Of a stretch of 40,338 nt of DNA, positions 430 to 13,974 are shown in pieces. Below the pieces are notes generated by a model. It made no database searches and was not told the origin of the DNA. It saw only the letters and a program-made list of their open reading frames with translations. The position numbers and the translations under genes are program-made. How positions within the stretch are numbered: position 1 is the first letter of the stretch; each line of letters opens with the position of its first letter. The stretch lies in UHGV virus genome UHGV-0319604, one strand, 5' to 3'. The stretch is from a virus.

Positions 430-1548
430 TTAAATAGCAAGTTTGGTCCATTCCTTCCCGCGATCATCGTTGTATCTGTCAGTGGTTGACTGTGTTTTAT
501 GCCCCAGCAAAATTTTCGTATCGATCCCCTGGGCGCGGTAAAGTCGTTCGGACAATGAGCGCTGTTCGTGAAACGTTGTGGGTGTTTTTCCTGCAGGCGG
601 TACGATACCGGCTGCATCACGTGCCGCGGCAAACTCTTTGGAAACCAAAATCAGATTCACAGGTTTCGCCTTACTGTTCATTTTCCCGTGCAAGAGGTAG
701 GGACTGACAAACCTATCCCTACATTTCCGTATTACATCCTCCAGCGATAAGCCAATGGCTTCACAACGGAGGTTCAGCGGCAATGCAATACGTGCCCCCG
801 TTTTGCTTTGCTCGATGTGCAGATAGCCGTCCTTAATGTCTGAAAATTTCATGTTCGCAATATCCTCCCGGCGCTGACCAGTGACTAACGCAAGCAGCAT
901 CGCTTTATGCGAGTACCGATCCTCGGGTATTTGCGCCAGTATTTTTTTCCATTCGTCCAGAGAGAGGCGCGCACGTGTAACCTTCACCGAGGGTTTTTTT
1001 GTTGCTGCTGGTGGATTCCATCCAGGAGGCACCTCTCCTGCATGTTGTGCTTCAGTGAAAATATCCACCCATACCACCCGGTTACAGAGGGCACTGCTGG
1101 CATGTCCTGCATCCAGATATTCATCCAGTAACACGGCAAAATCCTTTACCTCCAAACTCTTCATTGGCCGGGAACCAAGCCGCCTGGAAAGCAACTCTGC
1201 CATGCGTTTTTTTTCTTTAAAGCGTTTCAGCGATAGCGATCCGGCATCCAGGCTTTGTGTCTGAATCTTCAGATATCGTTCTATCCATGCTTTGAGGCTG
1301 ATCCCGCGCTGTGCTGCTGCTTTTGGAGTATCATCAATTTGGCGCAAATAGTGCTCGGCTTCTGCTGCTGCAATTCTCTGATTTGCCGTTGTGGCTATTT
1401 TTTCCGCTTTCTCTCTGTCTGTTCCCAGGCCGTGGAACTTACCCGTTAAAGGGTTTTTATACTGGTAGTATGTTTTTGCTGTGCGACGATCAAACCGGGC
1501 ATACAGCCCGGAAATTGATACATTATTTTTTCGTGGCCTTGGTGACAT
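430..1548 (-). CDS. int: Phage integrase, tyrosine recombinase family
   Basis: 372-aa ORF; C-terminal catalytic-type motifs HEQRSLSERLY ... LLGH ... DRY (H-x-x-R and terminal Tyr); position at prophage end overlapping excisionase gene. Confidence 0.85.
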   Translation of the reverse strand: MSPRPRKNNVSISGLYARFDRRTAKTYYQYKNPLTGKFHGLGTDREKAEKIATTANQRIAAAEAEHYLRQIDDTPKAAAQRGISLKAWIERYLKIQTQSLDAGSLSLKRFKEKKRMAELLSRRLGSRPMKSLEVKDFAVLLDEYLDAGHASSALCNRVVWVDIFTEAQHAGEVPPGWNPPAATKKPSVKVTRARLSLDEWKKILAQIPEDRYSHKAMLLALVTGQRREDIANMKFSDIKDGYLHIEQSKTGARIALPLNLRCEAIGLSLEDVIRKCRDRFVSPYLLHGKMNSKAKPVNLILVSKEFAAARDAAGIVPPAGKTPTTFHEQRSLSERLYRAQGIDTKILLGHKTQSTTDRYNDDRGKEWTKLAI

Positions 1549-1795
1549 CGCTCAGGATCTCCCGCAAAATTTCGTCATCGTCACTGTGAATTTCTGGTTC
1601 GACTCCCGTCGCGCCTGGTCCGATATAAACTGCCTGTTCGTCTATACACCAACGATTTCCAATTTTAATCGGCCTCGGTTGTATGTATCCCAGTTTCCCG
1701 TGTTTCACCAGGCATGTGATTGTTATGGGGAAGTGCAATCTGCGAGCTTTCCAGTCACGCAGCGGTATCAGACTTTGTTCACTCATAGCTATCAC
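1523..1795 (-). CDS. xis: Excisionase-like small DNA-binding protein (Xis)
   Basis: Small ORF immediately upstream of and overlapping int start by 26 nt; typical size and position. True start may be the internal Met (MSEQSLIPL...). Confidence 0.55.
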   Translation of the reverse strand: MIAMSEQSLIPLRDWKARRLHFPITITCLVKHGKLGYIQPRPIKIGNRWCIDEQAVYIGPGATGVEPEIHSDDDEILREILSDVTKATKK

Positions 1796-1882
1796 TCTTG
1801 ATAGCCAGCTGCGATCATACGTGCTGCAGCTGGCGGATATTGAATCTCACGAATCAGTTAACCTTGGCTGGCATCGCCCAGG

Positions 1883-2176
1883 TCAATCGGGCGTGTTGAT
1901 AAACTTCCTCACCAGCGCAGACTCCATTCGCCTGATACAGTCGCGTATCCTTGTCATTTGCACTTCGGGAAACTGACTCCGCCCCATCTCTTCCAGTACG
2001 CTGACAAGATGGTGATCCTGGACTTTGGTCGCCAGTACGCGAGCGCATGCACGCAATGATTCTCCGATACGCCGTTTTTCTATGGCTGCAAATGCTCGGC
2101 ACAGCTCCAGAGTTACCAGCGTGTCGGGAAATTCTGCAAATCGGGTATTGGCGATAACTTCCTTTGCTTTGATCAC
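1883..2176 (-). CDS. Hypothetical early protein (97 aa), GTG start overlapping upstream stop (GTGA)
   Basis: ORF in track (1883..2218); likely start is GTG at 2174-2176 overlapping the stop codon of the upstream 626-aa gene, suggesting translational coupling. Confidence 0.4.
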   Translation of the reverse strand: MIKAKEVIANTRFAEFPDTLVTLELCRAFAAIEKRRIGESLRACARVLATKVQDHHLVSVLEEMGRSQFPEVQMTRIRDCIRRMESALVRKFINTPD

Positions 2177-4053
2177 TCTGCAATCTCCTGCTGACTGATA
2201 ACGCTGCTGGCAAGCCACACGGCCATACCCGGTAGATCATCGTACTGATTGCAGTATGCAGGGTTAGCACATAACCCCTGCAGCGCGGCGGCCGTCAGCT
2301 GCTGATGATAGGTAAGGGCGAATGTTGATGGCTCAGGTACGGAAGCAGGGCGCTGTTCTTCTGGTTTGGCTTCGATCTCTGGGGGAGGCAAAACCACAGC
2401 AACAGGTGCCTCTTCAGTTCCTTCCTGCCGATATTGTTCTAAAATGCGCGTGAGATAATCGAATCGTGTTTCAGGGTTGTCGCTCCATTCTTCGAGCGCA
2501 TTCCAGACCAGATATTCAACATCGTCATCATCAATAATTTCTGGGGTCTCGCCATTTTCCAAAGCAAAAATATCAGTCATGATCATCATTGCAATGTGCG
2601 ATGAATCATGGCCTGTATTGGAGATCAGAAGCTCTGCCTCTTCCTCGTTAAAATAGGCAGTTCTCCCTGCCAGGGTATTTTCTACCAGCGCCTTAATTGC
2701 CTCCTCTCGTGCTGACAGCACAGGTTGATCGTCATTTTTGGCAGATGTAAGCGATTCGACTGTGAAGACGCCGCCGCCCAAGTTCTCCACCCGCGGTTGA
2801 TCCCCGGTTTGATTTTCAGGTGCAGGGCTCTGAGCGAATGCCTCTTTGAGTTCTTTGTCGAGTTGCGCAGCTTTGCCAGGGCAAACTGCTGGTGGCAGAG
2901 TTTCGCCCGGTACAGTCGATTCGGTTTCATCATTTTCTTTTTTCTCAGCATTGGTGCGAGGTTTTGGACGGCAGGCCGTATCAATTGTTTTCTGGTCAGG
3001 GTGCGCGTGGTCAGATTCAACCAACTCGCGATTGATGTACTCCCGTAATTTGATCGGATTGAGCCAGATGTCTTCTGGTGCTGACTTGATCAGGGCGATG
3101 ATGGACGCACGCGAATAGTCCAAAATTCCAGGGGTGCCGCGTAGCTGCGCCCACCATGCAGTAAAACGAGGATCCTGTGCGGCTTCCGCCATTGCTTTCG
3201 CTGGAATCATGTATTTATTCGGGATCCAGTAAATGTCGATCTCGTCGTACATACTCAGAATGGCAATAGCCACTTCGATACGCAGCGTAGAGAGGTTATG
3301 AACCAGATCCGGGCTACGGTCTGTCTTGTTGCCACCACCCAGCGTGGAGCCGGTGTCTGTACGGTTTTCTTCTGTGGTTGTGGTAGACTGAGGACGCTTA
3401 TCAACTGGTGTATCGATCCATTTAGCGATCTGCTTTTTGATGTCCGGCCACTGCGCAGATCCTTTGGTGTTCTCACGTAACCAGGAGAGTAATTGCTCCT
3501 GGCGTTCCGGCGCCAACTCAAGCGCGCGGCGCTCTTTTGCAAGTGCTTCTGCAAGCTCGCGGGCAAAGCTGGGTTCATCGTCATTCCTCAAATCGACGAT
3601 CTGGCCATACTGCGCTGAAGTGATTCCAGGGACCGGGCCGAACAGTGCCAGACAAGCTGCGCGGGATGCCTGGTCGAGCTGCGCAACGATTTTAATTTCT
3701 TCCTGAGTCTTGTTGTCCTCCCATTCTTCCTTTGCTTCAGTCTCTGGCTTTGGTGCAGCAGCTGGTTCACCGCGGTTGGTATTCCAGATAACGTGATCAC
3801 CAAAGAAATCAGAGCTAAACACATCAAGCTCAGGGCAGGGGAGATCATCATGGTGTTCCCAGATTTTCACCTTAAAATAATCATCAATATGTTCAGGATG
3901 TTCTGCCGCCAGCTTACCGAAAATAACGGCTTCAGCGATGGCTTTTGTGGCCGCATTAACTGCGGTGGCAAGTGGTTTTAAATCGGGATGTTTTTTTAAT
4001 GCTTTATCTTTTGGGAAGTAAGCACCACCAAATACTTTTAACTCAACAGACAT
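2173..4053 (-). CDS. Large acidic early-left protein, possibly RecE-family (exonuclease VIII-like) N-terminal/middle region without an obvious nuclease domain
   Basis: 626-aa ORF; segment GGGNKTDRSPDLVHNLSTLRIEV...DIYWIP...LDYSRASIIALIKSAP...ESDHAHPDQKTIDTAC resembles my recollection of RecE; gene order (Zn-ribbon small gene, then large gene, then xis/int) parallels the Rac prophage. Family assignment is from memory only. Confidence 0.4.
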   Translation of the reverse strand: MSVELKVFGGAYFPKDKALKKHPDLKPLATAVNAATKAIAEAVIFGKLAAEHPEHIDDYFKVKIWEHHDDLPCPELDVFSSDFFGDHVIWNTNRGEPAAAPKPETEAKEEWEDNKTQEEIKIVAQLDQASRAACLALFGPVPGITSAQYGQIVDLRNDDEPSFARELAEALAKERRALELAPERQEQLLSWLRENTKGSAQWPDIKKQIAKWIDTPVDKRPQSTTTTEENRTDTGSTLGGGNKTDRSPDLVHNLSTLRIEVAIAILSMYDEIDIYWIPNKYMIPAKAMAEAAQDPRFTAWWAQLRGTPGILDYSRASIIALIKSAPEDIWLNPIKLREYINRELVESDHAHPDQKTIDTACRPKPRTNAEKKENDETESTVPGETLPPAVCPGKAAQLDKELKEAFAQSPAPENQTGDQPRVENLGGGVFTVESLTSAKNDDQPVLSAREEAIKALVENTLAGRTAYFNEEEAELLISNTGHDSSHIAMMIMTDIFALENGETPEIIDDDDVEYLVWNALEEWSDNPETRFDYLTRILEQYRQEGTEEAPVAVVLPPPEIEAKPEEQRPASVPEPSTFALTYHQQLTAAALQGLCANPAYCNQYDDLPGMAVWLASSVISQQEIAE

Positions 4054-4064
4054 AATAACCTCGT

Positions 4065-4274
4065 TTAATATTTGAAAAATGATGTTGAATGAAATGGCTT
4101 GCGGATGCCGCGTTTTACCTTTCTTAAAGCGTCACGCTTTTCTCTTTTTTCATTGCATTGCTCACATAAATAAATCGTGCGCTTAAAGGGATATATATCT
4201 GTTTTCCTTTCGTGCATTTCCGATTTTTTATATTCGTGGCAGCAAACAGCGCAATGACAAATGACGTCATCCAT
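4065..4274 (-). CDS. Small Cys-rich zinc-ribbon protein (YdaE-like position)
   Basis: ORF with CxC...CC...CxxC cysteine pattern (MDDVICHCAVCCHEY...LCEQCNEKREK); internal Met at 4274 gives tight packing with upstream gene. Confidence 0.45.
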   Translation of the reverse strand: MDDVICHCAVCCHEYKKSEMHERKTDIYPFKRTIYLCEQCNEKREKRDALRKVKRGIRKPFHSTSFFKY

Positions 4275-4275
4275 A

Positions 4276-4548
4276 TTAATTAAGTTGTTGGCGCTTATGA
4301 TCGTAATAGGACATGCCACAGAAGCTCTGCGCTTCTGCGAATTTCACAGATAGCAAACTAATGTGTTTGACAGCGCATGCAGGGCAATCGAACTCCCCGA
4401 GTACGTAGCCACCATCAATCACAACGGTAACAGGGCCAGAGGATGGCAAATGAACCACGCCTGAAATAGCACCGTTAACATTAAATGTTGCAAGGTCTTT
4501 ATTTACGATTGCAAGGCTCAATTCTACGGTGGTAATAGTTGCTTTCAT
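4276..4548 (-). CDS. Hypothetical early protein (90 aa)
   Basis: ORF in track (4276..4587), likely start MKATITTV at 4548; stop lies 2 nt from downstream start. Confidence 0.4.
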   Translation of the reverse strand: MKATITTVELSLAIVNKDLATFNVNGAISGVVHLPSSGPVTVVIDGGYVLGEFDCPACAVKHISLLSVKFAEAQSFCGMSYYDHKRQQLN

Positions 4549-4617
4549 TTTATGATCCTTAATTTGAGGTGTGAAAATCCCTGCCATTTAAGGCATCGAT
4601 TTTTTAAGTTAGGAAAA

Positions 4618-4803
4618 TCAAATAACGTTTAAACTATCGCGCCACTCCTGGCGGGGTTGGCGATGCACTACAAAATTTCTGTATTTACGTAATACTTTCC
4701 AGGCGGCATGACATCCGGCAACATCACGAAGAAACACTGATGTGACAAGTTTCCCCTGAGCCCATGCAATTTGCTGTTCCGGTGTTAATTGTGTTTTATT
4801 CAT
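4618..4803 (-). CDS. Hypothetical early protein (61 aa)
   Basis: ORF in track (4618..4860); probable start MNKTQLTPEQ at 4803. Confidence 0.35.
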   Translation of the reverse strand: MNKTQLTPEQQIAWAQGKLVTSVFLRDVAGCHAAWKVLRKYRNFVVHRQPRQEWRDSLNVI

Positions 4804-4891
4804 TACTGAATACCCCGCTGAGAAATTAATCCTAAAAAGGGCGGTATAATCATGGACCACGGGAAAGCATATACCGCCAAGCGATCAAATC

Positions 4892-5389
4892 TTATAGCAT
4901 CTGAAATAATTGCCGCTGAGTTAATCTCTTTTCCCATAATCGGAGGGCAGTTGCTTTTGCCCAGCGGTACCATTCGCGGCCAGCTTCTTTGTAAGAATTA
5001 CCGAGTCTAACCAGATCCCAGGTTTCCTGTGAGAAGTCGGGCTTTTTATTTGCGATATGTTGCCGGGCAGCGATCATGCTGTCGATTGCTTCGTTGATCT
5101 CCAGCGCTTCGGTGTGGTGAGATTCAATCATCTGCTCGATGGTCTTGCGGCTGTCGTGTTGATTAGCCCATTCATCCCACTGCTCATCTGCTTTCACTTC
5201 GTCGATCTCTGCGTTGAATTCTAGCGCTTCGGCGTGGTCACGTTCTGCCAGAGCTTTTAAAATTTTGTGCATCGTGTTCTCTGATTTCACTTCACGCAAT
5301 GTGCTGCAGTTATACGCGTTGAAGGTGCCATCTTCGCGTTGTTTCACGCTGTATACCGCTTTGCCGATGTTGATTTTGTGGCTGGTCAT
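4892..5389 (-). CDS. Hypothetical early protein (165 aa) with internal 40-residue duplication; first gene of leftward operon
   Basis: ORF in track; DNA near-repeat cgttgatctccagcgcttcggtgtggt (5092-5118) vs cgttgaattctagcgcttcggcgtggt (5212-5238), 120 bp apart, giving protein repeats HAEALEFNAEIDEV / HTEALEINEAIDSM. Confidence 0.5.
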   Translation of the reverse strand: MTSHKINIGKAVYSVKQREDGTFNAYNCSTLREVKSENTMHKILKALAERDHAEALEFNAEIDEVKADEQWDEWANQHDSRKTIEQMIESHHTEALEINEAIDSMIAARQHIANKKPDFSQETWDLVRLGNSYKEAGREWYRWAKATALRLWEKRLTQRQLFQML

Positions 5390-5468
5390 AGTGCATCCCT
5401 CTTTTTCACCCTTATCGCCGGGTAGGCGGAACGTTTACCTGTCGCACCTGTTGTGCTTCGATGAGTAG

Positions 5469-5539
5469 AGAATACAACATAAAGTAGATGTGTCAACACT
5501 AAAAGTAGAAGTTTAGAAGTGGCGTGCTACTTGTGGTAG
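5469..5539 (-). promoter_or_regulatory. Leftward early promoter (PL-like) with operator palindromes
   Basis: On minus strand, TTGACA (plus 5491-5496), 16-nt spacer, TATTCT (plus 5469-5474); palindromes ACATAAAGTAGATGT (5477-5491) and CTACTTGTGGTAG (5527-5539) share the CTAC/GTAG half-site with the operator at 6108-6120. Confidence 0.4.
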
Positions 5540-5551
5540 TGGTGAAAGGCG

Positions 5552-5591
5552 AAAAAAAACCCGGCATGTGCCGGGTTATTTGGGATTTTTT
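5552..5591. terminator. Rho-independent terminator at the 3' end of the repressor gene (hairpin flanked by A8 and T-rich runs; possibly bidirectional)
   Basis: cccggc-atgt-gccggg hairpin (5560-5575) preceded by aaaaaaaa (5552-5559) and followed by ttatttgggatttttttt; on the minus strand this reads hairpin + T8 directly after the repressor stop codon (5592-5594). Confidence 0.6.
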
Positions 5592-6083
5592 TTACTTCTG
5601 CGGGGTGTTGGCGTACTTCAGAAAGAAATCATAAAGCTGCTTATACCGCATTTCGAACGCCAGTAGCATGTTCTTGGCTTCGACGCTTGGGAACTGCCTA
5701 TACACTCGAAGCAGTCGCTTTTCGTCTTCACTTAAATCTCTGAATTCCGCATCGCTGTCAATGTCAGGATCTGTCGGCGGGAAGCCCGAAAACTCAGTTT
5801 CCGGAAGCTTGATGGGTACACTCTCGCCTTCGCCATAATCAAGCCATGCCGCTTGGACATTTAGCCAGTCAGCTATCTTTTGCAGTTTCTCATCGCGTGG
5901 CTTAGCCGTGCCCAGCGTATAACGACGAGCCATTTCGTATGTGACATCGCAAGCCTGGCTTAAATCCTTTACGGAACGGCGCTGTCTGCGCATTTCTTCG
6001 GTCAGCCGGTTAGCGAAATCCTGATGTTTATTCGCTTTTTCTACCATAGGTAGAAGAGTAAGGCACGGCGCGTTCATAGTCAT
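5592..6083 (-). CDS. Prophage repressor (CI-like; HTH N-terminal domain, no S24 LexA-like peptidase domain; RacR-like)
   Basis: 163-aa ORF; N-terminal HTH-type segment (VKDLSQACDVTYEMARRYTLGTAKP); divergent from a cro-like gene with shared operator region; C-terminal ~80 aa shows no Ser/Lys peptidase motifs. Confidence 0.7.
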   Translation of the reverse strand: MTMNAPCLTLLPMVEKANKHQDFANRLTEEMRRQRRSVKDLSQACDVTYEMARRYTLGTAKPRDEKLQKIADWLNVQAAWLDYGEGESVPIKLPETEFSGFPPTDPDIDSDAEFRDLSEDEKRLLRVYRQFPSVEAKNMLLAFEMRYKQLYDFFLKYANTPQK

Positions 6084-6092
6084 TTCTATTTT

Positions 6093-6126
6093 TCGTAGTT
6101 GTATTTTCTACTTTATGTAGTATATT
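6093..6126 (+). promoter_or_regulatory. Rightward early promoter (PR-like) with operator palindrome CTACTTTATGTAG
   Basis: TTGTAT (6099-6104), 16-nt spacer, TATATT (6121-6126); palindrome CTAC-N5-GTAG at 6108-6120 in the spacer; located in the 72-bp gap between divergent repressor and cro-like genes. Confidence 0.4.
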
Positions 6127-6155
6127 GCAGTCATCGACTCATTCAGGAGAACACG

Positions 6156-6425
6156 ATGACTACTTCATACAAGAACATAACGGAAAAGGCGGTGAGGTCG
6201 ATTGGTTCGGTTTCGGCCGTCGCCCGCAAATTCAACTTTAAGTCCTCACAGTCAGTAGCAAACTGGATTATCCGAAACCGAGTTCCAAGTGAGCGAGTGA
6301 TAAAGCTCTGTGAATTTGGCGGTTGGACTGTCACCCCGCATGAGTTACGTCCGGATTTGCATCCAACCCCTACCAGCGGAATTCCTGTTCAGGATATCCC
6401 ACGTGCGCAGAGGGAGTCTGAGTGA
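6156..6425 (+). CDS. Cro-like DNA-binding protein (YdaS family)
   Basis: Start ATG 6156 with SD CAGGAGA; small HTH protein (SVSAVARKFNFKSSQSVANWI) ending ...TPHELRPDLHP, resembling YdaS-type Cro proteins; divergent from repressor. Confidence 0.6.
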   Translation: MTTSYKNITEKAVRSIGSVSAVARKFNFKSSQSVANWIIRNRVPSERVIKLCEFGGWTVTPHELRPDLHPTPTSGIPVQDIPRAQRESE

Positions 6426-6874
6426 TGGAAATCAAAAAACTGGCATGTGAGCTGGAGTCCTGGGCGCAGGAAAAGGGCTGGAAGACGGTGACGCAGCTGA
6501 TAACCCCGCATCACTTTGGTGATCTGCTTCAGTCACTGGATGACGTTTCGGATCCGGACGAGTACGCGCGGCGGCTGCACAACAACAAGCAGATTATTCA
6601 GCGTGCGTTCCGCAACGATACACCTAACTACCTGAAACAGGCTGAAGCTCTGAGCTATGCCATCCGTACCGCGATTGATAACGAACTGGCGCAGAAGGAC
6701 TGCATGCACTACCGGGCGGCCAGGGTTAACAAAGAGTGTATTGAAGCCACCAATGCTGTCTTCACAGGCAAGCCGCAACCGGTAATCCGACGCGAGACTC
6801 TGGAAGCGATCGATGCGCTGGCGCAGATGGCTGGCGTGAAAGTCCAAATTATGCACTGCCATCGCGCAGCTTAA
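6425..6874 (+). CDS. YdaT-like regulatory protein (CII position)
   Basis: ORF immediately after the cro-like gene (start overlaps its stop, TGATGG); size and position match ydaS-ydaT pairs of Rac-like prophages. Family assignment from memory. Confidence 0.4.
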   Translation: MEIKKLACELESWAQEKGWKTVTQLITPHHFGDLLQSLDDVSDPDEYARRLHNNKQIIQRAFRNDTPNYLKQAEALSYAIRTAIDNELAQKDCMHYRAARVNKECIEATNAVFTGKPQPVIRRETLEAIDALAQMAGVKVQIMHCHRAA

Positions 6875-6890
6875 CGGTCTGGAGGCAACT

Positions 6891-7154
6891 ATGCGTACTT
6901 CTCAGGAATTAGCGAGCGCACTGGCAGAGCGCATGAAAAACGCGATGAAGACCCGACCCGCTCAGGAGCCAGTGGATCGCCGCGGTGAAATCATTCCAGG
7001 GAAGCAATACCGCGACGAACGCGGGCGCATGGTTACAGTTTTGCGTGCATCCCAGCTCCGCGTGTCATATCGCCGGGAGGGGTACACCGGCGTCAGTGAA
7101 ACAGGGCGCCGTGAGTTTGAAATGAAGTTCACCGAGGTGAAAAGTGAGTCTTGA
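6891..7154 (+). CDS. Hypothetical small protein (87 aa)
   Basis: ORF in track with ATG start; between ydaT-like and replication genes. Confidence 0.4.
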   Translation: MRTSQELASALAERMKNAMKTRPAQEPVDRRGEIIPGKQYRDERGRMVTVLRASQLRVSYRREGYTGVSETGRREFEMKFTEVKSES

Positions 7155-8178
7155 TGCCATGCGCTGGGCCAAAAAGGTCAAAACAGGGCGATCGTCTGCA
7201 AAGTCGGTCCTTACCTGGCTGGCTGATATGTGCGGAGCCGACTTAACGACATACCCGTCAATTGCCGCTCTGTCAGAAGCTACTGAGCTAGACAAAAAAA
7301 CAGTTCAGGCAAGCCTGCAGCATCTGATCGCTATGGGATTTATCCAGGACACTGGAGAACGTCGCGGGCGCACAAAACAAATCCCTGTCTACAAATTAAT
7401 CGGGGTGGAGGAAAGCATTGCAGATTCTGAACACACCCAAAAACGGGAACATTACCAAAAACGGGGTCGTTCAAAGGGAACCGAAAACGGGAGTGTTTCA
7501 GAAAACGAACCCAAAAACGGTGCTGTTAAAAAGGGTGAAACGATCCCGTTTTTTCCGTCAAACGATCCCAAAAACGGGATACGGAATCCCCCAGAGGAAT
7601 CTAAAGATCTAAACCCCACACATAGCGCGCGAGGGGAACTGGTTGGATCAGTCAGTGAAAGACCGGTTCCGGAATACCCTGGTCAGCCAGGCACGTTTTT
7701 CCCCGCCTCTCAGTTGCTCGGGAAATTTCCGATGAGCAAGGAGTGGAAACCATCTGCGGACTTTCGCAAACAGGCGAACCTCTGGGGGCGCCCTGTGCCT
7801 GAGAAACTAACTCCCGATGATTTACGCGCTGCACATGCCTGCTTTGTCGATTACTGGATCTCTGAGGGCAAGGCATTCAACCAGACGCAGTGGGAGCAAA
7901 AATTTGCTCTCCACCTGCAGAACACAAAGCCAACAAAACCGCGAGGTAATTCTCATGCAGGACTGGACCCAAACTCCACAGCAAACGCTGCTGTACAACG
8001 AGCGCGCGCAGCACGTGCAGAACAATTACGAGCTCGAGGAGAAGGCGTGGAAATTCTGGGAACTCATGCTGGAAATTTACTCCACCCGCTGGGAGACCAA
8101 AAACGGATCGGCTCCGTCGGACCTATGGATTGCGCAGATTGGGAGTTTGACCAGCGCCCAGACGACGAGCGTCTGTAA
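7144..8178 (+). CDS. Replication initiation protein (O-like: N-terminal HTH domain plus DnaT-like C-terminal region)
   Basis: N-terminal MRWAKKVKTGRSSAKSVLTWLADMCGADLTTYPSIAALSEATELDKKTVQASLQHLIAMGFI is a typical phage replication-protein HTH; followed by a low-complexity linker and a conserved C-terminal region. Last ~75 codons overlap the next gene out of frame. Confidence 0.6.
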   Translation: MSLDAMRWAKKVKTGRSSAKSVLTWLADMCGADLTTYPSIAALSEATELDKKTVQASLQHLIAMGFIQDTGERRGRTKQIPVYKLIGVEESIADSEHTQKREHYQKRGRSKGTENGSVSENEPKNGAVKKGETIPFFPSNDPKNGIRNPPEESKDLNPTHSARGELVGSVSERPVPEYPGQPGTFFPASQLLGKFPMSKEWKPSADFRKQANLWGRPVPEKLTPDDLRAAHACFVDYWISEGKAFNQTQWEQKFALHLQNTKPTKPRGNSHAGLDPNSTANAAVQRARAARAEQLRARGEGVEILGTHAGNLLHPLGDQKRIGSVGPMDCADWEFDQRPDDERL

Positions 8179-8605
8179 TGCGCTGGTGGCGCGCTGTAAA
8201 GCAGGTAATTCCTGGCCGCCGGATCTGGCTGAATTCGTGACGCTGGTGGCGGACATCAGCGGTAACGCTCTTGGGCTAAGAACGGCAGACGTGATGGCGG
8301 AATACAAGCGCTGGCGCAACGAGTCTTACCGCTATGACAGCTCAGAGGTATTTCCGTGGCGTCATCCGGTTTTGTATCAGATTTGCACCGAAATGCGACG
8401 CTCCGGTGTTGAGCGTCAAATGACCCAGACCGAACTGGAAGCACTCGCCGCCTCGCAGCTGGCGAAGTGGGAAAAACATTTGGCGGACGGGCATCCGATC
8501 CCTCCGGTGAGAAAACAAATTGCCGCGCCACGCCATGCTCCAGGACCGACCCCCGCGCAATTGCTTAAAGCGCAGGCCGAAGCAGCAAAATTAAACCGTA
8601 TGTGA
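7955..8605 (+). CDS. Replication protein P-like (helicase loader)
   Basis: Start ATG 7955 with SD GAGG; motifs WPPDLAEFVTLV, FPWRHPVLYQICTEMRR and ELEALAASQLAKWEKHLADGHPIPP align by eye with lambda P (PSPGQFVAWCRE, YPWKSNAHYWLVTNLYQNMR, ELRRKAADELVHMTARINRGEAIPEP) as recalled. Confidence 0.55.
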   Translation: MQDWTQTPQQTLLYNERAQHVQNNYELEEKAWKFWELMLEIYSTRWETKNGSAPSDLWIAQIGSLTSAQTTSVCNALVARCKAGNSWPPDLAEFVTLVADISGNALGLRTADVMAEYKRWRNESYRYDSSEVFPWRHPVLYQICTEMRRSGVERQMTQTELEALAASQLAKWEKHLADGHPIPPVRKQIAAPRHAPGPTPAQLLKAQAEAAKLNRM

Positions 8606-8612
8606 ACAGGAG

Positions 8613-9302
8613 ATGATTATGGAAACCGTACTGGATGCACTGAAAGCCATGAAAAAAGCGACATATCGCGAGGTTGCCGCCCGTCTTGATATCGAACCAG
8701 TAGAAGCGCTGAACATGCTGCGCGAGCACAAACAGCAGGGTTTGTGTGATTTCTTCGATGGGGCATGGTCAGTCGGTACCGCGAAAGAGCAGGCCAGGGA
8801 ACTGGCAAAAGCGCCAGCTGTGGCGCCAGTGCATCAGTCACCGCGTCTGAAAGGTGAGGAACCAGCACCGGTTGATGCTGAGGCCGTCCGCCAGATGCTC
8901 GGCAAGAACGGAGCTATGACCACCGCGGCACTGGCCGCAGCTGTAAACCGTAATGCCCGCGGCATGGTCTCAGTGATGCTGGCGTTTGAGCGCCAGGGTG
9001 TTGTTATCAAAAACGGCCTGGGGAAGGGCGTTACATGGTCTCTCCCTGTAACTGGCCAGACTGAATCAGACAGCACTGAAGCGGTACAACCTGAGCCAGG
9101 CAGTAAATCCCTGAATGAAATTATTGGGGATATTCCTGCGTTCACCGCCCGCCCTGATGACCTGATTATTCCGTCATCGCGCTTTATTTCGAACGAAATC
9201 CGCCGCACAAAAGCGAAGCTGTCAAACCTGCAGCGTCTTCAGGGTGCCGTTCGGGAGCTGCGTCGCCATAAACATCTGCTGGCAGGTATCAGCGATGAGT
9301 GA
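8613..9302 (+). CDS. Hypothetical protein (229 aa) with two winged-helix-like segments
   Basis: ORF with SD AGGAG; two internally similar helical segments (ATYREVAARLDIEPVEALNMLREHKQQGL and AMTTAALAAAVNRNARGMVSVMLAFERQGVVIKNG). Confidence 0.45.
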   Translation: MIMETVLDALKAMKKATYREVAARLDIEPVEALNMLREHKQQGLCDFFDGAWSVGTAKEQARELAKAPAVAPVHQSPRLKGEEPAPVDAEAVRQMLGKNGAMTTAALAAAVNRNARGMVSVMLAFERQGVVIKNGLGKGVTWSLPVTGQTESDSTEAVQPEPGSKSLNEIIGDIPAFTARPDDLIIPSSRFISNEIRRTKAKLSNLQRLQGAVRELRRHKHLLAGISDE

Positions 9303-9525
9303 TTTACCAAAATGCCCTGACTGCGGCCAGTCACCATCGATAAAGGTCCGTAGCCGGGGGATGAACTGGGGTTCTGCAGAAATTCGTTGTTCAAACGGAT
9401 GCTCTGCCTGGCGGGTGGGATTTTCGTTCCCATCCGGCGGTGAGACGGCAGCCCGTAAAGAACTTGAAGATAAATGGCAAAAGCTGGTGGGAGGGCTTAA
9501 CGATGCCAAGACCAAAAACGCATGA
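9295..9525 (+). CDS. Small zinc-ribbon protein (CxxC ... CxxxC)
   Basis: Start ATG 9295 overlapping upstream stop; PKCPDCGQ ... CSNGCSAW cysteine pairs. Confidence 0.4.
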   Translation: MSDLPKCPDCGQSPSIKVRSRGMNWGSAEIRCSNGCSAWRVGFSFPSGGETAARKELEDKWQKLVGGLNDAKTKNA

Positions 9526-9970
9526 CGAGCGCACCAGGATTATCAATCGGATTATCGATCTGGTGAAAGAACATGGGCGCATCACTACGAAAGATGTCGT
9601 TGCGATGTTCGATCTGCATCGCACAACCGCTGAGAAATATCTCCGCACCGCGATAGAGCAGGGAGGCCTTGTTCGCCACGGTCGCTGCGGTACGTTCGGC
9701 GATGTTGGTCCTGTTGGCCCACTAAAGCATCTGTCGAAAGAAGCTCTTGAAGCAGCAGCCGAACCTAATGATCTCAGTGAGTGGGCCGATATGCAGTTCT
9801 TGTTATGGGATGCCCAGCGCCGCGCTGGTATCAGCGATGGTGAAATCACTGCAGCGATGGAAGAAAAGCTAAAGGTGAATATGGCGCGACAGTGGCCTGA
9901 ACCGAAGGACGGAGAACCACGTCTGCATATCAAGACAGCCCCGTTGCAGGAGGTGAAACAGTGTACCTGA
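9503..9970 (+). CDS. Hypothetical protein with N-terminal winged-helix-like domain
   Basis: Start ATG 9503 after GGGAGGG; TRIINRIIDLVKEHGRITTKDVVAMFDLHRTTAEKYLRTAIEQGGLV. Confidence 0.4.
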   Translation: MPRPKTHDERTRIINRIIDLVKEHGRITTKDVVAMFDLHRTTAEKYLRTAIEQGGLVRHGRCGTFGDVGPVGPLKHLSKEALEAAAEPNDLSEWADMQFLLWDAQRRAGISDGEITAAMEEKLKVNMARQWPEPKDGEPRLHIKTAPLQEVKQCT

Positions 9971-10050
9971 TGGAGCTGTTATCAGGCGCAGTCTGGCTGG
10001 TAGTTTTAATCGTGCTGGTGGTGCTGGCTCTGAGAAGAATTGATTACTGA
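9970..10050 (+). CDS. Candidate small hydrophobic peptide (26 aa, MELLSGAVWLVVLIVLVVLALRRIDY)
   Basis: ATG overlaps upstream stop (TGATG); single predicted TM helix then RR; followed 12 nt later by a strong terminator. Below the 60-aa track cutoff. Confidence 0.3.
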   Translation: MELLSGAVWLVVLIVLVVLALRRIDY

Positions 10051-10061
10051 TTAAGCACTTA

Positions 10062-10081
10062 CCCGCTTCGGCGGGTTTTTT
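10062..10081 (+). terminator. Rho-independent terminator ending the early-right operon
   Basis: cccgc-ttcg-gcggg hairpin followed by tttttt. Confidence 0.6.
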
Positions 10082-10146
10082 GCCCTAGGCCAAAGCCCTT
10101 TAACATTTCGTGCTGTTAAACCGTTGATCAATTCCATGTGTGAGTG

Positions 10147-10166
10147 TACTGTATAAATATACAGTA
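10147..10166. promoter_or_regulatory. LexA box (SOS operator), perfect palindrome TACTGTATAAATATACAGTA
   Basis: Matches the CTGT-N8-ACAG LexA consensus on both half-sites; sits 20 nt upstream of the ATG at 10187 and overlaps a TATAAAT -10-like element. Confidence 0.8.
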
Positions 10167-10186
10167 ACATTGTGGAGGCGATCACC

Positions 10187-10510
10187 ATGGGTTTTCCATC
10201 ACCAGCAGCAGACTACGCAGAGCAAACCCTCTCAATTACCAGTATCTGCGGTTATGACAGCAACTGCCGCACCATCGAAACCTCTTCCGGTTACGCAATC
10301 ATCAACATTGCCAGAAAGGCGAAGATTGGCGACACGGTTCTCATTTCCTTTTGTGGAAAGCTGGACTTCGCCTCCGTTCAGGGGAAAGCACTCATCACGC
10401 CTGACGGAGAGGCGATTGAAGGTGATGCGCTGGACGATGCGACCGTTCTTGGAGTTGTTACATACCTTCTGAACAGCGTTACCGACACAGACGACAGGCC
10501 AGTGATATAG
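10187..10510 (+). CDS. UmuD'-like S24-fold protein lacking the catalytic Ser/Lys dyad (pseudo-peptidase), LexA-regulated
   Basis: SD GGAGG 7 nt upstream; begins MGFPSPAADYAEQ, matching the UmuD segment immediately after its cleavage site (CGFPSPAADYVEQ); C-terminal GDTVLISFCGKLDFA...ATVLGVVTYLL aligns with UmuD GDIVIAAVDGEFTVK...LDVFGVVIHVV, but the GDSM Ser position reads GYAI and the Lys position is Ala/Ser. UmuD sequence is from memory. Confidence 0.6.
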   Translation: MGFPSPAADYAEQTLSITSICGYDSNCRTIETSSGYAIINIARKAKIGDTVLISFCGKLDFASVQGKALITPDGEAIEGDALDDATVLGVVTYLLNSVTDTDDRPVI

Positions 10511-10556
10511 CAGAGCGTGCATGATTCCTGTGCATAAAGAGCCGATCGGTTACACA

Positions 10557-10578
10557 GATCAATTACGGTTAATTGATC
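10557..10578. repeat. Perfect inverted repeat GATCAATT-acggtt-AATTGATC (two GATC sites)
   Basis: Seen directly; 8-bp arms, 6-nt spacer, in the noncoding gap downstream of the UmuD'-like gene. Confidence 0.5.
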
Positions 10579-10695
10579 TATCTAACCTATTAGACGTTCA
10601 TGGCGATGGCTGCTTTAGTTACGTTCAGCGCGCAGGGAGAAAAGGGCCGCCCCCCGATTAGTCGGGGATGACTGAATTGAATAGGATTTTTCGTT

Positions 10696-10863
10696 ATGAA
10701 TGAGCAAGAATTAATCGCTGCCGTTCGCCCTGCTGGACGTTATGAGGTAGTGAGCCGGGAGGATGGCTCCTTTGTTGTAATCCCTGTACCTGCCGAAGCA
10801 ATACTCATCACCAGGGAAGCACTCAGACAATGCCTTGAGCGCTTCCGCAACCCTGACAACTGA
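10696..10863 (+). CDS. Possible small ORF (55 aa), no clear RBS
   Basis: ATG..TGA ORF MNEQELIAAVRPAGRYEVVSREDGSFVVIPVPAEAILITREALRQCLERFRNPDN; coding status uncertain. Confidence 0.25.
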   Translation: MNEQELIAAVRPAGRYEVVSREDGSFVVIPVPAEAILITREALRQCLERFRNPDN

Positions 10864-11002
10864 TTTATAATAATCAAGCTGGCCTGAACAACCAGCGCCT
10901 GTCGCACCATCACCGGAGAAAAGTGATGGCGCAAAGAACTACCCAGAATTATTCACACCGCCCATTCGCGCGCGGTGTTTCTGCTTATGCTGGTGATCCA
11001 GC

Positions 11003-11299
11003 ATGAAGAAAGCAGATAGCCTCCATCTTTCACGTGTGGCCGCGCTGGGCTGCATCGTGTGCAGAAACCAGAACTTGGGCGAGACGCCTGCGGAAATTCA
11101 CCATATCCGAACCGGTCAGGGCACCAGTCAACGTGCTGACCATCGGAAATCAATTCCCCTGTGCCATATGCACCACCGCAACGGCGGTTACGGTGTCGCG
11201 ATTCATGCTGGCCGCCGCGCCTGGGAAATGAAGTACGGCACTGAAGCTGAACTGCTGGTGCAGGTTCTCTATTTGCTGGGAGAGCCTGCCGATGAGTAA
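11003..11299 (+). CDS. Small HNH-motif zinc-binding protein (Ref/DUF1364-like)
   Basis: CIVCRNQ ... EIHHIR ... CHMHH pattern (CxxC, HH, CHxHH) typical of small phage HNH-like proteins. Confidence 0.45.
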   Translation: MKKADSLHLSRVAALGCIVCRNQNLGETPAEIHHIRTGQGTSQRADHRKSIPLCHMHHRNGGYGVAIHAGRRAWEMKYGTEAELLVQVLYLLGEPADE

Positions 11300-12953
11300 G
11301 CCAGTCAGTTACGGCTCAGTGTGCAGCGGCATCGAGGCCGCCAGCGTGGCATGGCATTGTTTGGGCTGGCAGCCAGCATGGTTCGCTGAGATAGAAAAAT
11401 TCCCCTCTGCTGTTCTGGCGTACCGCTGGCCGGACGTAAGCAATCTGGGTGATATGACGCAAATCCCCGCGGCAATCCGTGCCGGAAAAATCGAAGCGCC
11501 TGATGTGCTGGTGGGGGGCACCCCTTGCCAGGCGTTCAGCGTTGCGGGTTTACGTAATGGGCTGGCTGACGAACGCGGCCAGTTAACTTTGGCTTTTGTG
11601 GAGCTGGTTAATGCTATCGATGAACTACGCAGAGAACAGGGAAAAACTCCCGTCATCGTCGTCTGGGAAAACGTCCCCGGCGTATTCAGCAGCAAAGATA
11701 ACGCTTTCGGATGTTTTCTTGCAGGGCTTGCCGGCGAAAGCTGCGCGCTGGAATCACCAGGGAAGCGATGGTCAAACGCTGGTTATGTGCTGGGACCAGA
11801 AAGAGCTATTGCCTGGCGAGTGCTCGACGCTCAATTTTTCGGAGTGGCCCAACGACGCAGACGTGTGTTTGTTGTCGCAACAGCTCGAGGGGATATCGAT
11901 CCCGCAAAAATTCTTTTTGAGTCCGAAGGCCTGCGCCGGAATTCTCCGCCGCGCAGAAGTTCGCGGGAAGAAGTTGCCGGAACTTTTAAGGCTCGCGCTA
12001 ATTCAGGTGGCTGGGGACAAGATGTAGAACTTGCCGCAGGTGGCTATATGCAAGTTGTTGTTGGTAGTCACTGGGATAATCCATTGAACCCACACCCAAC
12101 ACTAAATCAGTCATTCAACACTGGTGGTATCGGTGCGAGTAACCAGGAATTATTCAGTCAGCGCGGAAGCGGGATTGTCGGAACGTATGTAAACACTAGC
12201 CGCACACTTTTGGGAAAACCTAACTGCAGCATGGCTGAAGACTTGGAAACTTTTGCCATACATGGAACCCAGGATCCGGATACTCTTCACGATATGGCAC
12301 ATGCCCTGGGGCGCAATCACGGGCAGAAAAACGCGGTTATTGCATTCAGTTCGAAAGATAGCGGCCATGATGCAGCCAGCGACATATCACCAACGCTTCG
12401 CGCAGGGAATAGCAGCAACAGCAATCAGAACGCTGGCGCACCGCCAGCAATAGCTTACGGCATTCCAGGAAACTGGATAGGCCGCGCTCCGCAAAACGGA
12501 GGAAATGCAGTAGAGCCTATGCATGATGTGTCTCCATGTCTGACCGTTGCGGATTGTCACGGCGTTGCATATGCCTTTAAGGCGGGGCAGGGTGCAAAAG
12601 CTAACGGCATAGGATACGCAGCCGAACAAGCCCCAACACTGACAAGCGCAAATAGCGGGAGCAATCAGGCTCCTGCAATCATGCAAAACATGGCCGTTCG
12701 CCGTCTGACTCCTGTCGAGTGCGAACGTCTGCAGGGCTTCCCAGATAACCACACCCTGATCCCCACACAAAAACGTAAGCAGCTCACCGCTGAAGAATAC
12801 GCCTACCTGCGCCACCACCGGCCAGAACTGACTGCAGAACAGGCTTACCGCCTGGCCGCTGATGGACCGCGCTATAAAGCGATCGGAAACTCAATGGCCG
12901 TACCGGTTATGCGGTGGATTGGTTCCCGCATACAGGAGGCGCTGCGTGCATAA
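11292..12953 (+). CDS. DNA (cytosine-5)-methyltransferase, orphan (no adjacent restriction gene), with long low-complexity target-recognition region
   Basis: C5-MTase motifs: GSVCSGIEAAS (motif I-like), GGTPCQAFSVAG (PCQ motif IV), ENV (motif VI), RRRVFVVA (motif VIII), RLTPVECERLQGFPDNH and AIGNSMAVPV (motifs IX/X). Confidence 0.85.
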   Translation: MSKPVSYGSVCSGIEAASVAWHCLGWQPAWFAEIEKFPSAVLAYRWPDVSNLGDMTQIPAAIRAGKIEAPDVLVGGTPCQAFSVAGLRNGLADERGQLTLAFVELVNAIDELRREQGKTPVIVVWENVPGVFSSKDNAFGCFLAGLAGESCALESPGKRWSNAGYVLGPERAIAWRVLDAQFFGVAQRRRRVFVVATARGDIDPAKILFESEGLRRNSPPRRSSREEVAGTFKARANSGGWGQDVELAAGGYMQVVVGSHWDNPLNPHPTLNQSFNTGGIGASNQELFSQRGSGIVGTYVNTSRTLLGKPNCSMAEDLETFAIHGTQDPDTLHDMAHALGRNHGQKNAVIAFSSKDSGHDAASDISPTLRAGNSSNSNQNAGAPPAIAYGIPGNWIGRAPQNGGNAVEPMHDVSPCLTVADCHGVAYAFKAGQGAKANGIGYAAEQAPTLTSANSGSNQAPAIMQNMAVRRLTPVECERLQGFPDNHTLIPTQKRKQLTAEEYAYLRHHRPELTAEQAYRLAADGPRYKAIGNSMAVPVMRWIGSRIQEALRA

Positions 12954-13302
12954 ATACATCATTACCCCAGTCGGAAAACCCCGCATGACCCGGGCTGATA
13001 AGTGGAAACAGCGCCCGCCGGTGATGCGCTATCGCATGTTCTGCGATGAAGCTAGGCTGCATGGAATCCAGGTGCCGGAGAGCGGCGCCCATATCACTTT
13101 CGTTTTGCCGATGCCGCAGAGCTGGAGCAAGAAAAAACGCGCAGCTATGGACGGCCAGCCACACCAGCAAAAGCCTGATCTGGACAACTTAACAAAATCG
13201 CTACTGGATGCCTTGTTTGAGGATGATTCCCACATTTGGGACGCCCGGACATCAAAAGTATGGGGCGAAACCGGAATGATAATTATCGAGGACATGAAAT
13301 GA
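12946..13302 (+). CDS. RusA-like Holliday junction resolvase
   Basis: GTG start after SD AGGAGG (12934-12939), overlapping the MTase stop; motifs PVGKPRMTRADKW and KPDLDNLTKSLLDALFEDDSHIWD resemble the RusA DLDN region. Confidence 0.55.
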   Translation: MHKYIITPVGKPRMTRADKWKQRPPVMRYRMFCDEARLHGIQVPESGAHITFVLPMPQSWSKKKRAAMDGQPHQQKPDLDNLTKSLLDALFEDDSHIWDARTSKVWGETGMIIIEDMK

Positions 13303-13904: not shown

Positions 13905-13946
13905 AAATCATCTTTTAACAAAAAGTGCTATTTGTGCGATGAAACA

Positions 13947-13974
13947 TTGAAAACGGGCCAGAAAATCAGATAAT
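13947..13974 (+). promoter_or_regulatory. Candidate late promoter (PR'-like)
   Basis: TTGAAA (13947-13952), 16-nt spacer, GATAAT (13969-13974), in the 340-bp gap downstream of the Q-like gene. Confidence 0.4.

What the first reader, a model, noticed from the sequence alone, without database searches (positions are those of the whole stretch)
2173..4053. Large RecE-like early protein without recognisable nuclease domain and without a RecT partner
The 626-aa early-left protein resembles, from memory, the non-catalytic N-terminal/middle part of RecE, and gene order mirrors Rac. There is no RecT-like gene, and the large ORF is followed by a GTG-coupled 97-aa ORF instead. Either the recombination module has decayed, or this N-terminal RecE-like region has an independent function that is retained.
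Basis: inference. Interest (0 to 1): 0.45.

Follow-up and report, generated by a model that had tools for sequence, protein, structure and literature searches.

The report
Nuclease-less RecE-like prophage protein
This prophage gene encodes a conserved relative of the recombination exonuclease RecE that keeps RecE's mysterious non-catalytic front two-thirds but carries an acidic helical domain instead of the nuclease, in a phage that has no recombinase of its own and is packed with host Chi recombination hotspots.

Summary
Window 2173-4053 (-) is an intact 626-aa ORF with a good RBS in the early-left operon. A 97-aa DUF7740 ORF follows through a GTGA stop/start overlap. Residues 17-442 are colinear with residues 11-475 of true RecE (hhalign probability 100, E 2e-52). 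Residues 443-626 are an acidic, all-helical domain plus a conserved hairpin, with no nuclease fold, no conserved Lys and no PD-(D/E)xK motif.

This is not decay. The same ~600-640-aa architecture recurs down to 35% identity in Enterobacter, Cronobacter, Lelliottia, Citrobacter and Buttiauxella prophages. Overall dN/dS is 0.13-0.33. It always sits next to xis/int and never has RecT, Bet, Erf, Exo, Gam or Abc2 nearby.

The RecE-like front end is modular. It occurs with a PDDEXK nuclease (RecE), a DnaQ-like exonuclease, another C-terminus, or this helical domain.

The window carries 21 Chi sites, all on one strand (1.5 expected). This matches the published "no Rec module, Chi-rich" lambdoid class that relies on host RecBCD. 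A 2025 paper already mentions nuclease-less "RecE-2" proteins of unknown role.

The function is unknown. The best inference is a non-enzymatic scaffold or adaptor. Public "exodeoxyribonuclease VIII" annotations for this family are unsupported.

The parts
2173..4053 (-). 626-aa RecE-like protein without a nuclease domain (phrog_26058; 'RecE-2'-like)
   Evidence: ORF. Full-length match to phrog_26058, partial matches to RecE-type PHROGs. Homologues of 622-633 aa in Enterobacter and Cronobacter.
3754..4053 (-). aa 1-100: N-terminal alpha/beta domain, remote counterpart of the RecE N-terminus (PF06630 region)
   Evidence: AF2 pLDDT 78-91. Colinear hhalign with RecE from residue 11. phrog_2489 and phrog_2082 N-terminal matches.
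3409..3696 (-). aa 120-215: second, helical domain
   Evidence: AF2 pLDDT 81-92. Aligned to RecE ~120-230.
2959..3378 (-). aa 226-365: GGGNxTDR loop plus helical 'middle' domain, the most conserved non-catalytic RecE region
   Evidence: 38% identity to K-12 RecE 238-412. tblastn hits to RecE of Gifsy-1/2, Rac and Klebsiella prophages. NF007259 positions 247-403.
2725..2958 (-). aa 366-443: acidic disordered linker ending in the ENLGGGVF(S/T)V motif, where homology to RecE ends
   Evidence: pLDDT below 50. The hhalign alignment ends at aa 442. Alignment A1.
2410..2724 (-). aa 444-548: five-helix, very acidic domain (net charge -20) that occupies the place of the nuclease
2176..2319 (-). aa 579-626: conserved helical hairpin, motif YxQQLTxAALQGLCANPAY..DDLPxMAxxLA
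   Evidence: Invariant L586 A589 A590 G593 C595 N597 P598 P608. pLDDT ~94. dN/dS 0.14-0.41.
1883..2176 (-). 97-aa basic ORF (DUF7740, phrog_11217), start GTG overlapping the stop of the large gene (GTGA)
   Evidence: Sequence. Pfam and PHROG. pI 9.3. Found downstream of the homologue only in L004, L005, L012 and L013.
4065..4319 (-). 84-aa Cys-rich ORF immediately upstream, conserved neighbour in several related prophages
   Evidence: ORF. tblastn hits in L002, L003, L006 and L008, weaker in L005 and L012.
5469..5496 (-). pL-like promoter (TTGACA-16-TATTCT) downstream of the CI-like repressor gene, the likely start of the early-left operon
   Evidence: Consensus scan only. Repressor at 5592-6083.
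430..1795 (-). integrase (430-1548) and excisionase (1523-1795) ending the early-left arm
   Evidence: Pfam and PHROG.
1007..34179 (+). 21 Chi sequences (GCTGGTGG), all on the + strand, none on the - strand. One (2888-2895) lies inside the RecE-like gene.
   Evidence: 21 found against 1.52 expected; the largest count among 100 shuffles was 5. Same polarity in related loci.

Best explanation
SHOWN. The gene encodes a functional, conserved member of the nuclease-less RecE-like proteins, which one 2025 paper calls 'RecE-2'. Its first ~440 residues are homologous, domain for domain, to the non-catalytic N-terminal and middle region of RecE. From residue ~444 the PD-(D/E)xK exonuclease of RecE is replaced by a very acidic five-helix domain and a conserved C-terminal helical hairpin.

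The RecE-like front end behaves as a portable module. In different prophages it carries different C-terminal ends: a PDDEXK 5'-3' exonuclease in RecE, a DnaQ-like 3'-5' exonuclease, a phrog_7838-type end, or this helical domain.

The host prophage has no annealing protein, no exonuclease and no anti-RecBCD gene. It carries 21 co-oriented Chi sites.

INFERRED.
- The phage relies on host RecBCD-Chi recombination, as proposed for the 'no Rec module, Chi-rich' lambdoid class.
- The protein is made early from pL.
- It acts without catalysis as a scaffold or adaptor. The RecE-like front end would bring it to whatever RecE's front end recognises (DNA ends, or recombination or replication intermediates or proteins). 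The acidic C-terminal module would bind a protein partner or mediate self-assembly instead of degrading DNA.
For: Homology to the non-catalytic part of RecE.

Absence of a nuclease:
- No Pfam hit, whereas RecE gives PF12684.
- All-helical, confident C-terminal model.
- No PDB or BFVD fold match.
- No conserved Lys or PD-(D/E)xK motif.

Conserved, selected architecture:
- More than 100 clusters of 622-633 aa.
- Full-length relatives down to 35% identity.
- 12 full-length loci in five or more genera.
- No internal stops in the nine loci used for dN/dS, and overall dN/dS 0.13-0.33.

Modularity of the C-terminal end:
- P0170 has an Rv2179c/DnaQ-like exonuclease.
- P0163, P0165, P0201 and others have PF12684.
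- P0147 combines a PF06630 N-terminus with this C-terminal domain.
- L014-L016 have a phrog_7838 end.

No Rec module:
- tblastn with RecT, the RecE nuclease, lambda Exo/Bet/Gam, P22 Erf/Abc1/Abc2/Arf and Mu Gam-like proteins finds nothing in the window or in L002-L013.
- Family scans of the ORFs examined across the early regions find none.

Chi: 21 on one strand and 0 on the other, against 1.5 expected.

Literature:
- The RecE N-terminal domain is of unknown function (PMC11611040).
- RecE-2 proteins lack a nuclease and their role is unknown; the Chi-rich Rec-less class is proposed to use RecBCD (PMC12315714).

The protein is acidic throughout (pI 4.6), which argues against direct DNA binding by the C-terminal module.
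Against: No experiment or structural match assigns any activity, so the scaffold or adaptor role is inference by elimination.

The function of the homologous region in RecE itself is unknown, so 'works like the RecE N-terminus' has little mechanistic content.

[quoted passage not shown] This protein therefore cannot be an essential part of the RecBCD-Chi strategy.

I could not confirm that the authors' 'RecE-2' set includes this subfamily, because the supplement is not held. No sequenced phage in the phage collection carries the N- or C-terminal domains.

One related locus (L006) has a premature stop ~30 codons before the end.
Confidence: 0.6

Rival explanations
1. Decayed recET module: the ORF is the remnant of a RecE gene that lost its nuclease and its recT neighbour by deletion, and is on its way to becoming a pseudogene.
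For: RecT is absent and no nuclease is present. Truncated copies do exist in degraded prophages, for example P0291, a 173-aa C-terminal remnant next to an integrase. L006 has a premature stop.
Against: The C-terminal 185 aa are not RecE sequence but a separate module, conserved and confidently folded. The full-length architecture is kept down to 35% identity in several genera. Overall dN/dS is 0.13-0.33 with saturated synonymous sites. The RBS is intact and the gene is coupled to its neighbours.
Confidence: 0.03
2. Cryptic enzyme: the helical C-terminal domain, or the conserved GGGNxTDR loop and middle domain, is a new kind of nuclease or other DNA-processing enzyme that current profiles do not recognise.
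For: Public annotation calls the family 'exodeoxyribonuclease VIII'. Conserved acidic residues D494, E499, D508 and D525 lie in the C-terminal domain. Relatives carry real nucleases in the same position.
Against: The annotation is not backed by the NCBIfam cut-off (103.8 against 1269 bits). The domain is an all-alpha bundle with no beta sheet. No structural match to any enzyme reached significance. There is no conserved Lys or His-metal motif.
Confidence: 0.07
3. Anti-RecBCD or end-protection factor: an acidic, helical, DNA-mimicking early protein that takes the place of Gam/Abc2 and shields linear phage DNA.
For: It sits in the early-left position where lambda has gam. The protein is very acidic, with the C-terminal domain at net -20. 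No other anti-RecBCD gene is in the window. The phrog_2489-type relatives are directly followed by a Mu Gam-like gene, linking the family to DNA-end biology.
Against: The window has 21 co-oriented Chi sites. In the 314-phage survey, Chi abundance goes with absence of anti-RecBCD, and such phages are proposed to need active RecBCD (PMC12315714). Full-length RecE, which shares the front end, does not replace Gam in recombineering practice (my own knowledge, not tested here).
Confidence: 0.12
4. Competition or defence-related factor: a catalytically dead RecE look-alike that titrates partners of RecE/RecT-type systems of rival phages, or counteracts or triggers a host defence. That is, an accessory gene not involved in the phage's own DNA metabolism.
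For: The gene is mosaic and fast-evolving. The N-terminal 100 aa are nearly identical to L003 (pN 0.025) while the C-terminal domain differs at half of the non-synonymous sites (pN 0.52), as is often seen in conflict genes. It is not universal in Rec-less phages.
Against: No PADLOC or defence context was examined. It lies in the pL operon rather than in a moron with its own promoter. No evidence of expression from the prophage state.
Confidence: 0.1

Closest known systems
RecE (exodeoxyribonuclease VIII) of the Rac prophage and the Gifsy-1/2 RecE proteins
   Same: Homologous and colinear over the non-catalytic N-terminal and middle region: window aa 17-442 match RecE 11-475, and the middle domain is 38% identical. 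Same place in the early-left operon near xis/int. Similarly acidic.
   Different: No PF12684 PD-(D/E)xK nuclease domain and no RecT gene downstream. The C-terminus is an unrelated helical domain. It fails the NCBIfam equivalog threshold by more than tenfold.
'RecE-2' proteins of lambdoid phages (Genome Res 2025, PMC12315714)
   Same: [quoted passage not shown] Both properties were found here.
   Different: That paper gives no family definition in the text held, and the supplement is not available. No phage record in the phage collection contains the N- or C-terminal domains of this protein. This Enterobacter-type subfamily (phrog_26058) may therefore differ from theirs, which is possibly phrog_2489-like.
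RecE-like proteins with a DnaQ-like 3'-5' exonuclease end (phrog_2082; e.g. P0170)
   Same: Share the RecE-type front end and middle domain. They show that the C-terminal position is exchangeable.
   Different: They carry a recognisable exonuclease (PF16473). The window protein carries none.
'No Rec module, Chi-rich' lambdoid phages (prototype LLS)
   Same: The prophage has no SSAP, nuclease, SSB or anti-RecBCD gene, and has 21/0 Chi sites. The published range for the class runs up to 25/0.
   Different: This is a property of the whole phage, not of the gene. The published class is said to have no shared early-left gene of unknown function.

Membership tests
RecE / exodeoxyribonuclease VIII (NCBIfam NF007259 equivalog) | C-terminal PD-(D/E)xK 5'-3' exonuclease domain (PF12684; RecE residues ~600-866) | tested here: not met
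   No Pfam hit at E<=0.1, whereas K-12 RecE gives PF12684 at E 4e-28. tblastn with RecE 588-866 finds nothing in the window. The C-terminus is all-helical. No conserved D..(D/E)xK.
RecE / exodeoxyribonuclease VIII (NCBIfam NF007259 equivalog) | Whole-protein score above the curated cut-off | tested here: not met
   103.8 bits against a cut-off of 1269. Only aa 229-382 match.
RecE / exodeoxyribonuclease VIII (NCBIfam NF007259 equivalog) | Non-catalytic N-terminal and middle region homologous to RecE 1-~475 | tested here: met
   hhalign probability 100, E 2.2e-52, 395 aligned columns. BLASTP E 6e-27 for the middle domain.
RecE / exodeoxyribonuclease VIII (NCBIfam NF007259 equivalog) | Adjacent, co-transcribed recT (annealing protein partner) | tested here: not met
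   No RecT, Bet or Erf by tblastn in the window or in 12 related loci. The downstream ORF is DUF7740.
RecE / exodeoxyribonuclease VIII (NCBIfam NF007259 equivalog) | 5'-3' dsDNA exonuclease activity | not testable with these tools
   Requires purified protein.
'RecE-2' (nuclease-less RecE-like proteins, PMC12315714) | [quoted passage not shown] | tested here: met
'RecE-2' (nuclease-less RecE-like proteins, PMC12315714) | No nuclease domain in a predicted structure | tested here: met
'RecE-2' (nuclease-less RecE-like proteins, PMC12315714) | Sequence membership in the authors' own RecE-2 set | not testable with these tools
   The supplementary tables are not held.
'No Rec module, Chi-rich' lambdoid phages (PMC12315714 class A) | No recognisable SAP, nuclease, SSB or anti-RecBCD gene | tested here: met
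   Family scans of the ORFs examined across the early regions. tblastn with eight reference Rec proteins. SSB was not searched with a reference sequence, but no PHROG SSB hit appeared.
'No Rec module, Chi-rich' lambdoid phages (PMC12315714 class A) | Eight or more Chi in one orientation, few in the other | tested here: met
   21 on + and 0 on -, with 1.52 expected.
'No Rec module, Chi-rich' lambdoid phages (PMC12315714 class A) | Growth aided by host RecBCD | not testable with these tools
   Needs plating on recB, recC and recD mutants.

The most novel reading that the evidence does not exclude
The non-catalytic two-thirds of RecE is a self-sufficient targeting module, directed for example to DNA ends or to a host recombination or replication protein. 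Phages would fit it with interchangeable C-terminal effectors. In Chi-rich phages without their own recombinase, the acidic helical effector found here would couple the phage genome to the host RecBCD/RecA pathway, recruiting or tuning it rather than inhibiting it. That would be a new kind of phage-encoded adaptor for host recombination, and it would at last assign a function to RecE's N-terminal region.
Probability: 0.15. Interest if true: 0.7.

Novelty: new member of a known kind. Interest (0 to 1): 0.45.

Why it matters
The role of the ~590 N-terminal residues of RecE has been open for decades. They are dispensable for classic ET recombination yet boost linear-linear recombination (PMC11611040).

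A family that keeps exactly this region under purifying selection, while discarding the nuclease and RecT, shows that the region has a function of its own. It also offers a clean genetic handle: delete or express it in Enterobacter prophages without confounding nuclease activity.

The family documents domain swapping at the C-terminal 'effector' position of RecE-like proteins.

It links a nuclease-less RecE relative to a prophage of the recently described Chi-rich, Rec-less type.

On the practical side, hundreds of database entries named 'exodeoxyribonuclease VIII' for this family are very likely misnamed.

Tried and rejected
- megablast of the region against phages and E. coli genomes: no useful match.
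- tblastn of the N-terminal 226 aa and the C-terminal 187 aa against 50,697 phage records: no match.
- PDB sequence profile search: only a chance hit to a designed binder.
- Foldseek against PDB and BFVD with the full model: nothing below E 0.06.
- The afdb50 library was not available.
- Idea that the 97-aa ORF is Rac RcbA/YdaC: no similarity.
- Idea that it is an obligatory partner: it is present downstream in only 4 related loci.
- Idea that the C-terminal domain and the hairpin are autonomous small proteins, which the representative search first suggested. Most such entries are contig-end fragments or 'partial' proteins. The one checked on long contigs (P0291) is a remnant in a degraded prophage. 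I therefore dropped the claim.
- Single-sequence word-index search with the C-terminal domain found only 4 proteins.
- One literature search was wasted because 'full-length RecE' matched 'receptor'. PF27430 is not mentioned in any held paper.
- Per-domain dN/dS is mostly not computable because synonymous sites are saturated.
Full report
**1. What is in the sequence**

The window is a complete ~40-kb lambdoid prophage. Reading from the left:
- integrase (430-1548, -) and excisionase (1523-1795, -);
- a leftward early operon;
- a CI-like repressor (5592-6083, -);
- Cro/CII-like, O- and P-like replication genes, RusA and Q;
- lysis, head and contractile-tail genes, rightward.

The flagged ORF (2173-4053, -) is intact and 626 aa long. 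It starts at an ATG preceded by GAGG at -7, 11 nt after the stop of an 84-aa Cys-rich ORF. Its TGA stop overlaps the GTG of a 97-aa ORF through a GTGA overlap. That ORF is a basic protein (pI 9.3) of family DUF7740 / phrog_11217. A pL-like promoter lies at 5496-5469, but this is a consensus match only. The observation as written is therefore correct.

**2. Relation to RecE**

Several independent comparisons show the same partial relationship:
- PHROGs gives a full-length match to phrog_26058 (unknown function). It gives partial matches to three families annotated as exonuclease or exonuclease VIII, always to their N-terminal or middle parts.
- NCBIfam's RecE equivalog matches only residues 229-382, at 103.8 bits against a cut-off of 1269.
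- BLASTP against K-12 RecE (fetched) aligns residues 231-404 with RecE 238-412 at 38% identity, E 6e-27.
- tblastn against 50,697 phage records hits only this middle region, in genes annotated RecE in Gifsy-1/2, Rac and Klebsiella prophages.
- A profile of 21 family members compared with a profile of 14 true RecE proteins gives probability 100, E 2.2e-52. The alignment is colinear over window residues 17-442 and RecE residues 11-475.

The whole front 70% of the protein thus corresponds to the non-catalytic part of RecE. A 2023 review still describes that part as being of unknown function (PMC11611040). Homology stops at the conserved ENLGGGVF(S/T)V motif.

**3. No nuclease**

- K-12 RecE gives PF06630 (2-178) and the PD-(D/E)xK domain PF12684 (615-850). 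The window protein gives no Pfam hit at E<=0.1.
- AlphaFold2 with a 21-sequence alignment (mean pLDDT 74.9) resolves five folded parts separated by disordered acidic linkers: residues 1-100 (alpha/beta), 120-215 (helical), 245-362 (helical), 445-546 (helical) and a hairpin at 580-625.
- A separate model of residues 440-626 with 36 sequences reaches pLDDT 86, about 96 in the five-helix domain, and contains no beta strand. A PD-(D/E)xK core needs a mixed beta sheet.
- No Lys is conserved in this region. The only D..(D/E)xK strings fall in the unconserved linker.
- The domain is extremely acidic, with net charge -20 over 105 residues.

**4. Not a decayed gene**

- The word-index search found more than 100 clusters of 622-633 aa at 74-97% identity in Enterobacter and Cronobacter.
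- The exhaustive representative search found the same full-length architecture (566-635 aa, aligned end to end) down to 35% identity.
- A genome scan returned 15 loci. Twelve have the same architecture, in Enterobacter, Lelliottia, Citrobacter, Buttiauxella and unnamed Enterobacteriaceae.
- In these the ORF is intact. The exceptions are L002 (cut by the contig end), L013 (linker deletion) and L006 (a stop ~30 codons early).
- Overall dN/dS against nine loci is 0.13-0.33, with synonymous sites near saturation.
- The gene is mosaic. The first 100 codons are almost identical to L003 (pN 0.025), whereas the helical C-terminal domain belongs to a different allelic type (pN 0.52).
- Truncated copies do exist, but the one examined is a remnant in a degraded prophage.

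**5. No partner recombinase, and the genomic setting**

In every locus the gene is followed by one or two small ORFs and an integrase. tblastn with the following queries finds nothing in the window or in L002-L013:
- RecT and the RecE nuclease domain;
- lambda Exo, Bet and Gam;
- P22 Erf, Abc1, Abc2 and Arf;
- a Mu Gam-like protein.

Family scans of the ORFs examined across the window's early regions find none either. The DUF7740 ORF follows the gene only in L004, L005, L012 and L013, so it is not a fixed partner.

The window contains 21 copies of Chi (GCTGGTGG), all on the + strand and none on the - strand. The expectation is 1.5, and the largest count among 100 shuffles was 5. Related loci show the same polarity.

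This is the signature of the 'no Rec module, Chi-rich' lambdoid class described in PMC12315714. That class has 68 of 314 phages, up to 25/0 Chi sites, and is proposed to depend on host RecBCD. The missing RecT is thus part of a whole-genome strategy rather than a local loss.

**6. Modularity**

Relatives that share only the middle or front regions are of several kinds:
- Classical RecE of 800-1089 aa, with PF06630 plus PF12684.
- Proteins ending in a DnaQ-like exonuclease: P0170 with PF16473, equal to the C-terminus of phrog_2082.
- Proteins of 700-790 aa with a phrog_7838-type end, followed by a Mu Gam-like gene (L014-L016).
- P0147, which joins a PF06630-type N-terminus to the helical domain found here.

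The RecE-like front end therefore behaves as a carrier for exchangeable C-terminal modules.

**7. What it most likely does**

Shown: it is a conserved, selected, non-nuclease RecE paralogue in a Rec-less, Chi-rich prophage.

Inferred: it acts as a non-enzymatic scaffold or adaptor. The front end would do whatever RecE's front end does. The acidic helical module and hairpin would bind a protein or mediate assembly.

The rivals are:
- Decay: contradicted.
- A cryptic enzyme: no structural support.
- A Gam-like RecBCD inhibitor: fits the charge and position, but conflicts with the Chi enrichment.
- A conflict or accessory factor: fits the mosaicism.

**8. Novelty**

PMC12315714 already notes 'RecE-2' proteins related to RecE that lack a nuclease domain, with roles unknown. 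New Pfam families PF27430 and PF27432 already cover the front end. This is therefore a new, better-delineated member of a known but uncharacterised kind, not a new category.

What this analysis adds:
- the full-length homology map;
- the replacement C-terminal module rather than a deletion;
- evidence for selection;
- the effector-swap pattern;
- the association with a 21/0 Chi prophage;
- the point that the 'exodeoxyribonuclease VIII' name is unsupported.

Noticed in passing
window 1007-34179, + strand (21 sites; list): Chi (GCTGGTGG) occurs 21 times on the + strand and never on the - strand, with 1.5 expected. The prophage has no recombinase, exonuclease or anti-RecBCD gene. It fits the published 'no Rec module, Chi-rich' lambdoid class that is thought to use host RecBCD.
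   Followed up: yes
window 2173-4053 and public homologues P0001-P0120: Hundreds of database entries for this family are named 'exodeoxyribonuclease VIII'. The NCBIfam RecE model scores 103.8 bits against a cut-off of 1269 and there is no nuclease domain, so this is very likely a systematic misannotation.
   Followed up: yes
P0170 (848 aa; representative search): A RecE-type N-terminus and middle domain fused to an Rv2179c/DnaQ-like 3'-5' exonuclease instead of the PD-(D/E)xK domain. It equals the C-terminal part of phrog_2082.
   Followed up: partly
L014 8112-8609, L015 8211-8780, L016 ~8205-8753: The 704-742-aa relatives of the phrog_2489 type share only the front ~345 aa with the window protein. 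They are directly followed by a Mu Gam-like end-protection gene, which the window-type loci lack.
   Followed up: partly
window 2410-2724 versus 3754-4053, compared with L003: Strong mosaicism within the gene. The first 100 codons are nearly identical to the Enterobacter mori copy (pN 0.025), while the helical C-terminal domain is a different allelic type (pN 0.52).
   Followed up: partly
L017-L019 4001-4522 (protein P0291): A 173-aa C-terminal remnant of the gene persists next to an integrase in a degraded prophage, beside a tail-fibre assembly remnant and a GT9 glycosyltransferase. The same arrangement occurs in 13 Enterobacter contigs.
   Followed up: partly
window 38082-39872, - strand (GC 0.38-0.46): Low-GC cargo at the right end, after the tail-fibre genes. 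It comprises a family-9 glycosyltransferase (heptosyltransferase-like, 370 aa), probably an LPS-modifying moron, and a Rha-family regulator (199 aa).
   Followed up: partly
window 11003-12953, + strand: An HNH-like ORF (98 aa) directly precedes a 553-aa C5 cytosine DNA methyltransferase, whose two methylase halves are separated by an insertion.
   Followed up: no
window 16416-18499, + strand: Between the lysis genes and the terminase lie three ORFs: a sialyltransferase-like / MptE-like ORF (192 aa), an unknown 288-aa ORF (phrog_6804) and a SAM methyltransferase. This may be a small modification cassette.
   Followed up: no
L006 ~7797: In one related locus (Bacterium BS0013) the homologous gene has a stop about 30 codons before the normal end, removing part of the conserved hairpin. 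It may be a pseudogene or a sequencing error.
   Followed up: no
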